From Candidatus Kerfeldbacteria bacterium (lineage in GTDB: Bacteria; Patescibacteriota; Patescibacteriia; UBA10025; JAHIVO01): DNA of 42,696 bases. Every line of letters begins with the position of its first letter. Positions within the stretch are counted from its first letter, which is position 1. A model generated the notes under the pieces. That model searched no databases and was not told the origin of the DNA. It saw only the letters and a list, made by a program, of their open reading frames with translations. Shown piece after piece: positions 36,830 through 37,559 of this stretch. The stretch spans positions 529,818 through 572,513 of the forward strand of contig CP181398.1 of the NCBI GenBank assembly GCA_047946875.1, read 5' to 3'. The translations under genes were made by a program, and so were the position numbers.

Positions 36830-36877
36830 GATTACTTTCTTAAATAATTAAATTTCATTTTCAGTTCTGCCGGACCT

Positions 36878-36931
36878 GTCGTAAACCACTAAAGGGTTCA
36901 CGACACCCTATTTCCTTCAGTGATATAGGGT
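36878..36931 (-). other. 54-nt double-hairpin insertion in the T-stem of the outer tRNA copy
   Basis: In RNA sense ACCCUAU-13nt-AUAGGGU (7 bp) is followed by GUCGUGAACC-7nt-GGUUUACGAC (10 bp including one G-U). It is absent from the intact copy. Confidence 0.8.
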
Positions 36932-36951
36932 GGATTCGAACCAGGATACTC

Positions 36952-36992
36952 GGCTTCCTCGCCAGAGGCGAGTCCGCCTATGGCGGAAAAGG
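36952..36992. repeat. 41-bp perfect direct repeat, left copy (tRNA nt 30-40 plus the 30-nt insertion)
   Basis: ggcttcctcgccagaggcgagtccgcctatggcggaaaagg is identical to 37365-37405. It contains the 30-nt insertion (36958-36987), made of two GC hairpins: UCCGCC-AUA-GGCGGA and CUCGCC-UCU-GGCGAG. Confidence 0.95.
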
Positions 36993-37015
36993 TTTTCATT
37001 TGTTCACTTTCAGTT

Positions 37016-37086
37016 CTGCCGGACCTGGATTCGAACCAGGATACTCGGCTTCAAAGGCCGATGTCCTACCATTAGACGATCCGGCA
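37016..37086 (-). tRNA. tRNA-Gln (anticodon UUG), intact, no encoded CCA
   Basis: Hand-folded cloverleaf: acceptor UGCCGGA/UCCGGCA (U1-A72, discriminator G, as in E. coli tRNA-Gln), D arm GUCU-AAUGGUA-GGAC, anticodon arm UCGGC-CUUUGAA-GCCGA, 4-nt variable loop, and T arm CCUGG-UUCGAAU-CCAGG. Confidence 0.93.
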
Positions 37087-37103
37087 GAGCTAAAAACGAT
37101 TAT

Positions 37104-37346
37104 TTATTTTAACTTTTTATCCAACCACTTCCTACCTTGTCCCGACTTTAAAAAACTTTCGCGAATGTAAGATTCTTTTTTATTTTTATATACTTCTGTA
37201 TAAATTAATTTCCATGGTTGATGCCCTCTTGTAAATTTACTTTTATTACTATTATGTTCCTCTATTCTTATATTAGCATCTTTTAGTGTGACTCCAATAT
37301 ACCTCATTCCATCTTTCTGACTTTTTAATATATAAACTGTATACAT
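37104..37346 (-). CDS. small GIY-YIG nuclease-family protein (80 aa) embedded in the tRNA-Gln locus
   Basis: MYTVYILKSQKDGMRYIGVT..RIEEHN..PWKLIY..RESFLKSGQGRKWL gives GIY/YIG, a conserved Arg and a Glu in canonical order. The stop lies 17 nt upstream of the intact tRNA. Confidence 0.8.
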   Translation of the reverse strand: MYTVYILKSQKDGMRYIGVTLKDANIRIEEHNSNKSKFTRGHQPWKLIYTEVYKNKKESYIRESFLKSGQGRKWLDKKLK

Positions 37347-37364
37347 ACATGATTATAAATTAAT

Positions 37365-37405
37365 GGCTTCCTCGCCAGAGGCGAGTCCGCCTATGGCGGA
37401 AAAGG
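37365..37405. repeat. 41-bp perfect direct repeat, right copy
   Basis: Identical (41/41) to 36952-36992. It includes the second copy of the 30-nt insertion (37371-37400). Confidence 0.95.
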
Positions 37406-37421
37406 CCGATGTCCTACCATT

Positions 37422-37442
37422 TTTTAATCCGCCTCTGGAGGA
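37422..37442 (-). other. 21-nt insertion in the D-loop of the outer tRNA copy
   Basis: In RNA sense UCCUCCAGAGGCGGAUUAAAA. It forms an imperfect UCCUCC-AGA-GGCGGA hairpin. Its CCAGAGGCG is the exact complement of CGCCUCUGG in the 30-nt insertion. Confidence 0.8.
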
Positions 37443-37559
37443 AGACGATCCGGCAGAGCTAAAAACGATAATTTGTATTACTATAAAAATGCCTAAATAC
37501 TGAATAAGAGAAGGTTATTAATATATTTTAATCAAAATTACGATAATGTCAACTATAAA

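What the first reader, a model, noticed from the sequence alone, without database searches (positions are those of the whole stretch)
36878..37442. Three GC-rich hairpin insertions at the D-loop, anticodon and T-stem of the outer tRNA copy, with the exonic bases perfectly conserved
Relative to the intact copy, the split copy carries three insertions:
- 21 nt after position 13, in the D-loop (37422-37442).
- 30 nt between the second and third anticodon bases (36958-36987 and 37371-37400).
- 54 nt inside the 3' strand of the T-stem (36878-36931).

All are far more GC-rich than this roughly 30% GC genome and fold into strong hairpins:
- UCCGCC-AUA-GGCGGA
- CUCGCC-UCU-GGCGAG
- UCCUCC-AGA-GGCGGA
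- ACCCUAU...AUAGGGU
- GUCGUGAACC...GGUUUACGAC

The D-loop insertion contains CCAGAGGCG, the exact complement of CGCCUCUGG in the anticodon insertion (9 bp). Because the anticodon-insertion hairpins are near-palindromic, the two copies could also pair with each other.

Multiple short structured insertions at non-canonical positions, and halves held together by GC-rich helices, are known from archaeal multi-intron and split tRNAs. I know of no bacterial counterpart.

Three explanations are possible:
- Intron-like elements removed from RNA.
- Miniature palindromic mobile elements.
- Target-site spoilers that make this copy immune to the adjacent nuclease.

Zero substitutions in the tRNA-derived bases argues against an old, decaying pseudogene.
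Basis: partly seen in the sequence, partly recalled or inferred. Interest (0 to 1): 0.7.

Follow-up and report, generated by a model that had tools for sequence, protein, structure and literature searches.

The report
Palindromic mini-elements in a split tRNA
The three hairpin inserts are not tRNA introns but small palindromic mobile DNA elements tied to a tiny nuclease gene cassette that split the resident tRNA-Gln gene and brought its own intact copy; the cassette type and the 30-bp element both recur widely in candidate-phyla-radiation (CPR) bacteria and I found no published description.

Summary
On the minus strand, an outer tRNA-Gln(UUG) copy is split around an 80-aa GIY-YIG gene plus an intact tRNA-Gln. 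It carries inserts of 21, 30 and 54 nt, and its remaining bases match the intact copy 73/73.

Comparative data change the interpretation:
- The 30-nt insert is a "twin hairpin" (TH): two 15-nt GC-rich palindromes.
- A TH lies 10-69 nt upstream of the start codon in 52 of 76 related GIY-YIG loci. It always interrupts a partial copy of the tRNA whose intact copy follows the gene.
- The same TH occurs alone in at least 120 metagenome stretches. It sits at TT|RA sites and is often in frame inside housekeeping proteins (peptide SAxGGSASGG), so there it is translated, not spliced.
- Related genomes carry the same locus without the nuclease gene. The 21-nt insert and the TH are present only where the cassette is.
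- No bulge-helix-bulge motif and no group I core are present.

Best reading: DNA-level selfish elements belonging to a homing-type cassette that replaces the gene it disrupts. The outer tRNA halves are relics.

Not resolved: whether the TH immunises the relics, or is itself the substrate of the Slx1-like nuclease.

The parts
37525..37552 (-). Promoter-like site TTGACA-16-TAAAAT (11 of 12 matches), about 65 nt upstream of the outer 5' half. Probably the resident tRNA promoter, now driving 5' half, ORF and tRNA.
   Evidence: This is a consensus match only. No comparable minus-strand site lies between it and the ORF.
37443..37456 (-). Outer tRNA-Gln piece e1 (the base before the tRNA plus positions 1-13)
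   Evidence: identical to the inner copy.
37422..37442 (-). i1: 21-nt insert after position 13. One 15-nt palindrome unit (TCCTCC-AGA-GGCGGA, one stem mismatch) plus TTAAAA.
   Evidence: The same 21-nt module (YCCGCC-NNN-GGCGGA-YTRAAR) lies at the same site in L003, L006, L008, L071 (Gln) and L022 (Asn). It is absent from the intact tRNA of the ORF-less allele L239.
37401..37421 (-). Outer piece e2 (positions 14-35, ending CCTTT)
37371..37400 (-). i2 copy A: 30-nt twin hairpin (TH), TCCGCC-ATA-GGCGGA + CTCGCC-TCT-GGCGAG, inserted at CTTT|GAA between anticodon bases 2 and 3. Junction module directly upstream of the ORF.
   Evidence: z -4.75; TH 10-69 nt upstream of the ORF in 52 of 76 loci.
37365..37405 (-). 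Left copy of the perfect 41-nt direct repeat (CCTTT + TH + GAAGCC)
   Evidence: family D1.
37104..37346 (-). 80-aa GIY-YIG nuclease gene: a bare catalytic domain of the UPF0213/Slx1 branch
   Evidence: Pfam PF01541, E = 1e-13. Conserved residues and the C-terminal motif FLKSGQGRKWL. PDB profile hits UPF0213 then SLX1. AlphaFold2 pLDDT 96 and Foldseek Slx1 TM 0.67.
37015..37087 (-). Intact tRNA-Gln(UUG), presumably the working gene, with copies of the native upstream (about 24 nt) and downstream (about 12 nt) flanks
   Evidence: families D2, D8.
36952..36992 (-). Right copy of the 41-nt direct repeat. It contains i2 copy B (36958-36987).
36932..36957 (-). Outer piece e3 (positions 36-61)
36878..36931 (-). 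i3: 54-nt insert in the 3' strand of the T-stem, made of two 27-nt hairpins (stems 7 and 10 bp)
   Evidence: z -4.28. A related unit lies in the L006 3' relic with its loop inverted. A 27+27-nt (18-aa) twin-hairpin class sits in frame in RtcA homologues.
36866..36877 (-). Outer piece e4 (positions 62-73 plus one base)

Best explanation
**What it is.** The locus is a resident tRNA-Gln gene invaded at its anticodon (CTTT|GAA) by a small selfish cassette. The cassette consists of a 30-bp twin-hairpin palindrome (TH), an 80-aa GIY-YIG nuclease gene, and a replacement tRNA-Gln with copies of the native flanks. The outer tRNA halves are the displaced, non-functional remains of the resident gene. They now serve only as promoter-proximal leader and as homology arms.

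**The three inserts act as DNA, not RNA.**
- i2 is the cassette's conserved junction module.
- i1 is a half-unit derivative that travels with the left arm.
- i3 belongs to a longer 27+27-nt class and sits in the right arm.

**Inferred mechanism.**
1. The nuclease breaks an unoccupied tRNA gene at a TTY|RAA site in a loop-coding segment.
2. The break is repaired from a cassette-bearing copy, using the tRNA halves as arms. This copies TH + ORF + tRNA (or only the 5' tRNA part) into the recipient.
3. The host keeps a working tRNA, so the insertion is tolerated.
4. In the displaced pieces, the palindromes split the cut site and chop the homology with the live tRNA into short blocks (14, 21, 26 and 12 nt of tRNA sequence). 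This should limit re-cleavage and recombinational loss of the cassette.
5. The intact inner copy stays cleavable. Out-of-register repair then gives the nested relics and perfect tandem arrays seen in relatives.
6. Solo THs elsewhere, including in-frame copies in essential proteins, are the non-autonomous spread of the same palindrome family.

**Shown:** the architecture, its recurrence, presence/absence polymorphism, the TH's target preference, and translation of the TH in proteins.

**Inferred:** the cleavage site, the homing itself, and the protective role of the inserts.
For: **Recurrent architecture**
- In the 80 genome loci of relatives of this nuclease (mostly CPR; also Omnitrophota, Ignavibacteria and others), 45 have a tRNA 0-160 nt after the ORF and 8 have one just before it.
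- At least 7 more have a tRNA-Asn interrupted by a group I intron.
- A 5' fragment of the same tRNA lies about 100 nt upstream, ended or interrupted by a TH.
- A TH lies 10-69 nt before the start codon in 52 of 76 loci. Another 11 have a single unit.

**Insertion sites**
- All are loop-coding T-rich|R-A sites: Gln CTTT|GAA, Lys CTTTT|AAGC, T-loop GGTTC|GAATCC, Ser D-loop GGTT|GAATC.

**Presence/absence at the orthologous locus**
- L239/L240 and L237 (same FtsE-FtsX/PFK neighbourhood) have an intact tRNA-Gln and old relics but no ORF.
- In L006, the partial copy carrying the exact 21-nt i1 and the TH sits where L239 has its intact tRNA.

**Active DNA-level dynamics**
- Perfect tandem arrays: 7 x 103 nt [TH + tRNA 29-74] in L052, and 4 x 326 nt [tRNA 1-21 + TH + ORF] in L056.
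- Nested relics in L006, L008 and L003.
- ORF-less relics in L128, L205 and L167.

**The TH is a mobile palindrome family**
- 132 true twin palindromes were found. Flanks are T at -2 in 103 of 131 and A at +2 in 106 of 131.
- 58 lie inside ORFs, 37 of them in phase 0, giving SAxGGSASGG.
- The hosts are real RtcA, Asd, Tgt, KsgA, LysRS and similar proteins.
- RtcA homologues with and without the element at the same TTT|GAA site show polymorphism.

**The nuclease**
- Catalytic residues are conserved.
- The nearest relatives are UPF0213 and the structure-specific Slx1, not I-TevI.

**Strong local enrichment**
- All hairpin units in the 42.7-kb window lie in this one locus.

**Precedent**
- T4 SegB, a GIY-YIG homing enzyme among tRNA genes, recognises the tRNA T-psi-C motif (PMC2330249).
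Against: - The inner tRNA is identical to the outer exons. A nuclease that reads tRNA-Gln DNA would also cut its own genome's working copy. Immunity of the occupied allele, a hallmark of classical homing, is not evident.
- The protein has no DNA-binding domain, so recognition of a long specific site is hard to picture.
- No cleavage, homing or expression data exist.
- Most THs (about 95% of those sampled) are not next to a GIY-YIG gene, so the nuclease-TH link could be indirect.
- GIY-YIG divergence between syntenic loci (62-70% identity) is similar to FtsX divergence (65-71%). That fits long vertical residence at least as well as frequent homing.
- The origin of the 41-nt duplication and of the 3' outer half is not explained uniquely. 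ORF-less relatives already carry 3' relics.
Confidence: 0.58

Rival explanations
1. The TH is the nuclease's own DNA substrate, and TH-cargo-TH is a transposon-like unit. The Slx1-like enzyme recognises the extruded hairpin or cruciform (or the 30-bp palindrome as a dimer) and cuts at its base. The ORF + tRNA travels between two THs, and solo THs are the minimal non-autonomous form. The 41-nt repeat is then a terminal repeat or target duplication, not a spoiler.
For: - The closest structural relatives are structure-specific nucleases for branched DNA (Slx1), and the protein is a bare catalytic domain.
- The TH is nearly a perfect 30-bp palindrome, perfect in L016. It reads the same on both strands, purine-rich loop first and pyrimidine-rich loop second, which suits a symmetric DNA-level recognition.
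- THs flank ORF + tRNA with 40-44-nt repeats in the window, L036 and L021.
- Insertion occurs at the centre of TT|RA with no target duplication.
- Solo copies greatly outnumber ORF-linked ones, as for MITEs.
Against: - Most cassettes have a TH on the ORF's upstream side only.
- GIY-YIG enzymes are hydrolytic nucleases with no known strand-transfer activity (own knowledge).
- Cutting at the element itself would favour its loss rather than its gain, unless it is coupled to a copying step.
- There is no direct evidence of excision.
Confidence: 0.22
2. The palindromes are passive. They are an independent genome-wide MITE-like family, mobilised by something other than the GIY-YIG protein, that piles up in the tRNA relics because these are neutral DNA with suitable TT|RA sites.
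For: - About 95% of sampled THs have no GIY-YIG gene nearby.
- They occur in many contexts, including proteins and CRISPR repeats.
- Several palindrome size classes use the same hotspot.
Against: - A TH at a fixed distance (10-69 nt) upstream of the ORF in 52 of 76 loci is not what neutral accumulation predicts.
- In the window, all units lie within about 600 bp, with none in the other 42 kb.
- i1 recurs at the identical position with the same 21-nt design in different species and even in a different tRNA (Asn, L022).
- The TH coordinate coincides with the cassette junction in every tRNA type.
Confidence: 0.1
3. RNA-level role: the inserts are intron-like and are removed from a transcript to give a second functional tRNA-Gln (as in archaeal multi-intron or split tRNAs). 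Alternatively, they are structured leader elements that stabilise or regulate the nuclease mRNA.
For: - The outer exons are perfectly conserved in this window.
- The hairpins are stable.
- The likely promoter lies upstream of the outer 5' half, so the 5' half and the TH are probably transcribed as leader of the ORF.
Against: - No bulge-helix-bulge motif and no ribozyme core are present.
- The two halves are separated by an ORF and a complete tRNA.
- The outer pieces are decayed in relatives (L006, L008, L004) while an intact copy is always present.
- The same element is retained and translated in proteins with a phase bias.
- The strand symmetry of the TH has no rationale for an RNA signal.
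- Tandem arrays and ORF-less relics are DNA-level phenomena.
Confidence: 0.05

Closest known systems
Free-standing GIY-YIG homing endonucleases of T-even phages, especially T4 SegB (PMC2330249)
   Same: - A GIY-YIG nuclease gene sits among or next to tRNA genes.
[quoted passage not shown]
- Here some cassettes are inserted exactly at GGTTC|GAATCC.
   Different: - SegB is a phage protein.
- The present protein is only 80 aa, a bare catalytic domain nearer to UPF0213/Slx1.
- It is chromosomal, in CPR and other bacteria.
- It splits the target gene and supplies a replacement copy.
- It is bounded by a palindromic twin hairpin.
Integrase-mediated islands and prophages that integrate into tRNA genes and carry a replacement 3' end (own knowledge; tRNA fragments in prokaryotes are discussed in bioRxiv 10.1101/2022.07.05.498093, listed but not read)
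   Same: - The element disrupts a tRNA gene but restores an intact gene with its own copy of part of it.
- A displaced partial tRNA is left as a repeat.
   Different: - There is no integrase; the whole cassette is about 0.4 kb.
- The replaced part is usually the 5' part plus the upstream flank.
- The junction carries a palindrome.
- Insertion points lie in the D, anticodon or T loops at TTY|RAA.
Rickettsia palindromic elements (RPEs) (PMC10969869)
   Same: Palindromic repeats that insert in frame into unrelated housekeeping genes and are translated as extra peptide segments (compared).
   Different: - RPEs are about 150 bp and specific to Rickettsia. The TH is 30 bp (with 15-, 21- and 54-nt relatives).
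- The TH occurs in CPR and other phyla.
- It is inserted at TT|RA without target duplication.
- It is physically linked to a nuclease gene family.
GC clusters of yeast mitochondria and double-hairpin elements of Allomyces mitochondria; the mobile GIY-YIG ORF in Allomyces atp6 that carries a duplicate gene end (own knowledge; GC clusters: PMC4478555, listed but not read)
   Same: - Short GC-rich hairpin elements spread in AT-rich genomes.
- A mobile endonuclease ORF brings a replacement for the gene segment it displaces, leaving the old segment as a pseudogene.
   Different: - Those are organellar and eukaryotic, with different sequences.
- The resemblance is recalled from memory and was not tested here.
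Archaeal multi-intron and split tRNAs
   Same: Short structured inserts at non-canonical tRNA positions, with the tRNA in pieces.
   Different: - No bulge-helix-bulge motif.
- A bacterial host.
- An intact copy lies adjacent.
- The inserts belong to a DNA repeat family that is translated in proteins.

Membership tests
Protein-spliced (archaeal-type) tRNA introns | Bulge-helix-bulge motif spanning both exon-intron junctions | tested here: not met
   The junctions are CCUUU|UCCGCC and GGCGAG|GAAGCC. Both hairpins are self-contained and no exon-intron helix forms (and direct reading).
Protein-spliced (archaeal-type) tRNA introns | The interrupted gene is the functional copy of that tRNA | tested here: not met
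   An intact tRNA-Gln(UUG) lies inside the locus, as in every related locus. The outer pieces are decayed in relatives.
Protein-spliced (archaeal-type) tRNA introns | Splicing endonuclease (EndA) and ligase (RtcB) encoded in the genome | not tested
   Only a 42.7-kb window was available, and its ORFs were not screened for EndA or RtcB.
Protein-spliced (archaeal-type) tRNA introns | The insert is removed from the RNA | not testable with these tools
   Indirect evidence against: the same 30-nt element is kept in frame, with a phase bias, in conserved proteins.
Group I introns in bacterial tRNA anticodon loops | Group I catalytic core detectable (Rfam RF00028) | tested here: not met
   No hit in the window at the gathering threshold or at E <= 1. 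Positive control: RF00028 is found in the tRNA-Asn of L013, L019, L023, L025, L029, L058 and L059.
Miniature palindromic in-frame elements (RPE-like / MITE-like) | Many dispersed copies of one short palindromic sequence family | tested here: met
Miniature palindromic in-frame elements (RPE-like / MITE-like) | Presence/absence polymorphism at homologous sites | tested here: met
   The RtcA site CLIAEF|ENT is empty in P0034, P0060, P0069 and P0121, carries a TH in P0033 and P0039, and carries other palindrome classes in P0038, P0047, P0050 and P0057. i1 and the TH are absent from the L239 tRNA and present in L006.
Miniature palindromic in-frame elements (RPE-like / MITE-like) | Length a multiple of three and insertion in frame in coding genes | tested here: met
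   Lengths are 30, 21 and 54 nt. 58 of 132 THs lie inside ORFs, 37 in phase 0. Pfam domains span the insert.
Miniature palindromic in-frame elements (RPE-like / MITE-like) | Target-site duplication, as in classical MITEs | tested here: not met
   The tRNA gives the exact empty site: removing the insert restores the sequence with no duplicated base. The flanks TT and RA belong to the target.
Free-standing GIY-YIG homing endonuclease genes (Seg-like) | GIY-YIG catalytic domain with conserved catalytic residues | tested here: met
   PF01541, E = 1e-13. Y5, Y16, G18, R27, H31 and E51 are invariant in 26 homologues. The fold is confirmed.
Free-standing GIY-YIG homing endonuclease genes (Seg-like) | Separate DNA-binding domain giving a long recognition site | tested here: not met
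   The protein is 80 aa, all of it the catalytic domain plus two C-terminal helices.
Free-standing GIY-YIG homing endonuclease genes (Seg-like) | ORF present or absent at an otherwise orthologous locus | tested here: met
   L006 compared with L239/L240, and the window compared with L237.
Free-standing GIY-YIG homing endonuclease genes (Seg-like) | The enzyme cleaves the ORF-less allele, and the occupied allele is immune | not testable with these tools
   Sequence gives no sign of immunity for the inner tRNA, which is identical to the outer exons. Perfect tandem arrays suggest repeated breakage and repair.
Integrase-type tRNA-targeting islands | Tyrosine or serine integrase encoded by the element | tested here: not met
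   The segment between the 41-nt repeats is 372 nt (413 nt from one repeat start to the next). It holds only the 80-aa ORF and the tRNA.

The most novel reading that the evidence does not exclude
An 80-aa Slx1/UPF0213-like GIY-YIG nuclease and the 30-bp twin-hairpin palindrome form a previously undescribed two-part mobile system.
- The nuclease cuts at or next to TTY|RAA or hairpin DNA.
- The palindrome is what gets inserted.
- The autonomous form lives inside tRNA genes by carrying a replacement tRNA segment.
- The non-autonomous 30-bp form has peppered CPR and other genomes, adding 10-residue Gly/Ser/Ala linkers to essential proteins and even entering CRISPR repeats.
Probability: 0.3. Interest if true: 0.85.

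Novelty: new variant of a known kind. Interest (0 to 1): 0.75.

Why it matters
- It would add a new design to the catalogue of selfish DNA: a nuclease cassette under 0.5 kb that neutralises its own damage by bringing a spare copy (or spare 5' part) of the tRNA gene it splits, without intron, intein or integrase.
- It links that cassette to a very short palindromic repeat family that inserts in frame into housekeeping proteins of CPR bacteria. The link bears on what mobilises such repeats, which is unknown for RPEs (own knowledge).
- It bears on annotation. Partial tRNA hits and 10-, 5- or 18-residue Gly/Ser-rich insertions in CPR proteins, and contig breaks at tRNA loci, may often stem from these elements.
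- A minimal nuclease with a defined short DNA partner is also an attractive object for biochemistry.

Tried and rejected
**Alternatives rejected**
- Assembly artefact: rejected. Identical sequence occurs in an NCBI and a JGI assembly, and the same architecture occurs in long-read contigs (L052, L056).
- Archaeal-type intron: no bulge-helix-bulge motif.
- Group I or other known RNA family: nothing apart from the tRNA.
- Integrase-mediated integration: no integrase.

**Searches that gave nothing**
- NCBIfam, PHROGs and PADLOC gave no hit for the nuclease.
- i3-like elements in all 240 held loci: only L006 shares a 15-nt loop/stem core, in inverted orientation, so the i3 family remains poorly sampled.
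- Nine literature searches found no description of tRNA-embedded mini GIY-YIG cassettes, and no paper containing the TH sequences.

**Tests that were uninformative**
- Loop orientation as a test between RNA and DNA function: the reverse complement of a TH again has the purine-rich loop first.
- The hypothesis that inner and outer tRNA copies differ systematically at the cut site (sequence immunity): not seen.

**Not attempted**
- A whole-genome census.
Full report
**1. The observation**

Reading the minus strand as tRNA sense, the locus runs as follows:
- promoter-like site, 37552-37525
- outer piece e1, 37456-37443
- i1 (21 nt), 37442-37422
- e2, 37421-37401
- i2 (30 nt), 37400-37371
- GAAGCC, 37370-37365
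- 18 nt of spacer
- an 80-aa ORF, 37346-37104
- intact tRNA-Gln(UUG), 37087-37015
- 22 nt of spacer
- CCTTT, then a second i2 copy, 36987-36958
- e3, 36957-36932
- i3 (54 nt), 36931-36878
- e4, 36877-36866

The joined outer pieces equal the inner tRNA 73/73. CCTTT + i2 + GAAGCC is a perfect 41-nt direct repeat around ORF + tRNA. The inner tRNA also carries copies of about 24 nt of upstream and 12 nt of downstream flank.

The four i2 units are the only perfect GC-rich hairpins in the 42.7-kb window. i2 and i3 fold far better than shuffled sequence. i1, which has a stem mismatch, does not. Two other public assemblies hold the identical sequence.

**2. The neighbour gene**

The ORF is a GIY-YIG catalytic domain and nothing else (Pfam E = 1e-13). 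Its homologues are 80-85 aa proteins, mostly from Patescibacteria/CPR. They share invariant catalytic residues and a C-terminal FLKSGQGRKWL motif. A profile search of the PDB finds UPF0213 proteins and then the structure-specific nuclease SLX1. A confident AlphaFold2 model (pLDDT 96) superposes better on Slx1 (TM 0.67) than on I-TevI or UvrC.

**3. The architecture recurs**

Three syntenic loci (FtsE-FtsX upstream; nuclease 62-70% identical) show the same order. A tRNA-Gln 5' half carries a hairpin insert after position 13 and a twin hairpin after CCTTT. Then come the ORF, an intact tRNA-Gln, and decayed 3' pieces with GC-rich hairpins.

A scan of one genome per species gave 80 loci:
- 45 have a tRNA within 160 nt after the ORF, and 8 have one just before it.
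- At least 7 more have a tRNA-Asn split by a group I intron.
- The tRNAs are Asn, Gln, Ser, Lys, Met, Pro, Val and Tyr.
- A 5' fragment of the same tRNA precedes the ORF. It is ended by a 30-nt "twin hairpin" (TH) of two units NNNGCC-NNN-GGCNNN.
- A TH lies 10-69 nt before the start codon in 52 of 76 loci, and a single unit in 11 more.

The hairpin arms change in a compensatory way (TCAGCC/GGCTGA, CCAGCC/GGCTGG, TGCGCC/GGCGCA; and TCCTCC/GGAGGA in L003).

The TH coordinate differs by cassette type but is always a loop-coding T-rich|R-A site: CTTT|GAA, CTTTT|AAGC, GGTTC|GAATCC, GGTT|GAATC. After the TH, 4-13 nt of tRNA continue before the ORF.

**4. The 30-nt insert is a repeat family of its own**

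Of these hits, 132 sites are true twin palindromes. Only about 5% lie near a GIY-YIG gene of this family.

Their flanks show T at -2 (103 of 131) and A at +2 (106 of 131). This is the same TT|RA context as in the tRNA, which also shows that there is no target duplication.

Fifty-eight sites lie inside long ORFs, 37 of them in phase 0, encoding SAxGGSASGG. The hosts are genuine RtcA, Asd, Tgt, KsgA, LysRS, nucleotidyltransferase, DnaE and IleRS proteins, with domain matches spanning the insert.

Among RtcA homologues the site CLIAEF|ENT (DNA TTT|GAA) takes several forms:
- empty;
- a TH;
- a 5-aa unit;
- a 9-aa unit;
- an 18-aa (54-nt) twin hairpin of 27-nt units, the size class of i3.

All three insert lengths in the window (21, 30, 54 nt) are multiples of three. 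These facts show a mobile, DNA-level family that is translated where it lands in genes. That is strong evidence against removal at the RNA level.

**5. Presence/absence of the cassette**

FtsX homologues led to orthologous loci without the ORF.
- L237 has promoter, intact tRNA-Gln and a 3' relic with hairpin inserts.
- L239/L240 have an old 5' relic, an intact tRNA and a 3' relic. Their first 90 intergenic bases are identical to L006.

In the alignment, the partial copy in L006 sits where L239 has its intact tRNA. It differs by exactly the 21-nt i1 and by TH + ORF + new tRNA. So i1 and the TH belong to the cassette side of the polymorphism, not to the functional gene.

**6. Signs of ongoing DNA dynamics**

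- L052 (a 1.3-Mb contig) has seven perfect 103-nt units [TH + tRNA 29-74 + flank] after its tRNA-Asn.
- L056 has four perfect 326-nt units [tRNA 1-21 + TH + ORF] before its tRNA-Ser.
- L235 has tandem 3' relics.
- L006, L008 and L003 hold nested older halves whose acceptor arms differ from the live tRNA.
- L128, L205 and L167 are ORF-less relics.
- Outer 5' exons usually match their own inner tRNA (0-1 mismatch). L006 is the exception.

Such patterns are what repeated breakage of the intact copy, followed by out-of-register repair between the repeats, would give. Slippage alone cannot be excluded.

**7. Interpretation**

The best-supported reading is a homing-type selfish cassette that splits a tRNA gene at a TTY|RAA loop site. 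It compensates by carrying a replacement tRNA, or just the 5' part with its flank. This is analogous to the replacement 3' ends carried by integrase-borne islands. Like T4 SegB, it is a GIY-YIG enzyme associated with tRNA genes; SegB recognises the tRNA T-psi-C motif (PMC2330249).

The outer halves are relics. The "zero substitutions" argument is weak. The flanks differ at 4 of 36 positions and the tRNA bases at 0 of 73 (hypergeometric p about 0.01, my own arithmetic). That fits a copy from a diverged donor whose tRNA is conserved, or gene conversion between the copies.

The inserts are palindromic mini-elements. i2 is the junction module, and i1 and i3 lie in the arms.

What they do for the cassette is inference. 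I favour two effects:
- disruption of the cut site in the relics;
- fragmentation of homology with the live tRNA into blocks of 14, 21, 26 and 12 nt.

The main rival is that the TH is the actual substrate of the Slx1-like nuclease, so that TH-cargo-TH behaves like a transposon. The strand symmetry of the TH, the 40-44-nt TH-containing repeats in three loci and the nuclease's relatives speak for it. The one-sided TH in most loci speaks against it.

The unsolved weak point of any homing model is that the inner tRNA is not protected by sequence.

**8. Novelty**

Each ingredient has precedents:
- free-standing GIY-YIG homing genes;
- tRNA-targeting elements with replacement segments;
- in-frame palindromic repeats such as RPEs (PMC10969869);
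- mitochondrial GC clusters and double-hairpin elements (own knowledge).

Nine literature searches found neither the combination nor the TH family. I rate it a new variant of known kinds, of high interest to mobile-DNA and CPR genomics specialists. All mechanistic steps still need experiment.

Noticed in passing
L013, L019, L023, L025, L029, L058, L059 (about 1400-2450 in each): The intact tRNA-Asn(GUU) downstream of the GIY-YIG ORF is interrupted after ...CTGT in the anticodon loop by a group I intron (Rfam RF00028, 54-90 bits). ARAGORN therefore misses these tRNAs. Group I introns and GIY-YIG cassettes coexist in the same tRNA gene.
   Followed up: partly
L134:845-1130: In a type I-C-like CRISPR array (repeat GTCGCTCCCCGCGCGGGAGCGTGGATTGAAAC), two repeats at one end of the array (one intact, one degenerate) carry a TH inserted at GGATTG|AAAC.
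   Followed up: partly
L052:1843-2563 and L056:1400-2703: Perfect tandem arrays occur: 7 x 103 nt [7 nt of tRNA + TH + tRNA-Asn 29-74 + flank], and 4 x 326 nt [tRNA-Ser 1-21 + TH + complete GIY-YIG ORF]. Zero divergence between units implies very recent amplification.
   Followed up: partly
window 36931 (end of contig SWBY01004800.1 = L001): The 58-kb NCBI contig that is otherwise identical to the window ends exactly at the e3|i3 boundary. This may reflect population heterogeneity (with or without i3) or repeat-induced graph branching.
   Followed up: no
Proteins P0033-P0152 (RtcA homologues), site VKIxP|SKLK: A second insertion hotspot in RtcA carries other variable in-frame inserts (LLRQGFGGQAS, LLRPAKRDSREKAS, AKPAPYRTCSGAG and others). 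Protein lengths step up from 339 aa in increments of roughly ten residues. This suggests further palindromic insert families in CPR proteins.
   Followed up: no
L017, L026, L028, L035, L048, L064 and others (ORF end about 1737-1749): In many tRNA-Asn cassettes the ORF overlaps the start of the tRNA by about 10 nt, apparently ending in the TAG of ...GGTAGCTC.... The packing is extremely compact.
   Followed up: no
L003:2180-2290, L004:2360-2425, L006:2217-2300, L239:3480-3590, L235/L237 3' relics: A different hairpin family (CCCCG...CGGGG, about 20-30 nt) recurs in the oldest tRNA-Gln relics, after AATGG in the D-loop and after GCCTT in the anticodon region.
   Followed up: no
L234:3416-3524 versus L003:2740-2774: Two contigs from the same run (SRR26901924) end in the same 30 nt (agttaaaataaataattgttttcagttctg), leading into tRNA-Gln. 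One comes from FtsX without the ORF, the other from the ORF's 3' end. Either both alleles coexist in the sample, or the ORF's last codons derive from the native tRNA upstream flank.
   Followed up: no
L164:1201, 3820, 8420: Three identical THs with about 60 nt of similar upstream sequence lie within 10 kb. The TH appears to be embedded in a larger repeated unit of unknown nature.
   Followed up: no
L208-L233 (IMG/VR contigs): 26 viral contigs carry the TH pattern, most as true twin palindromes. Whether these are CPR phages or misclassified cellular contigs was not examined.
   Followed up: no
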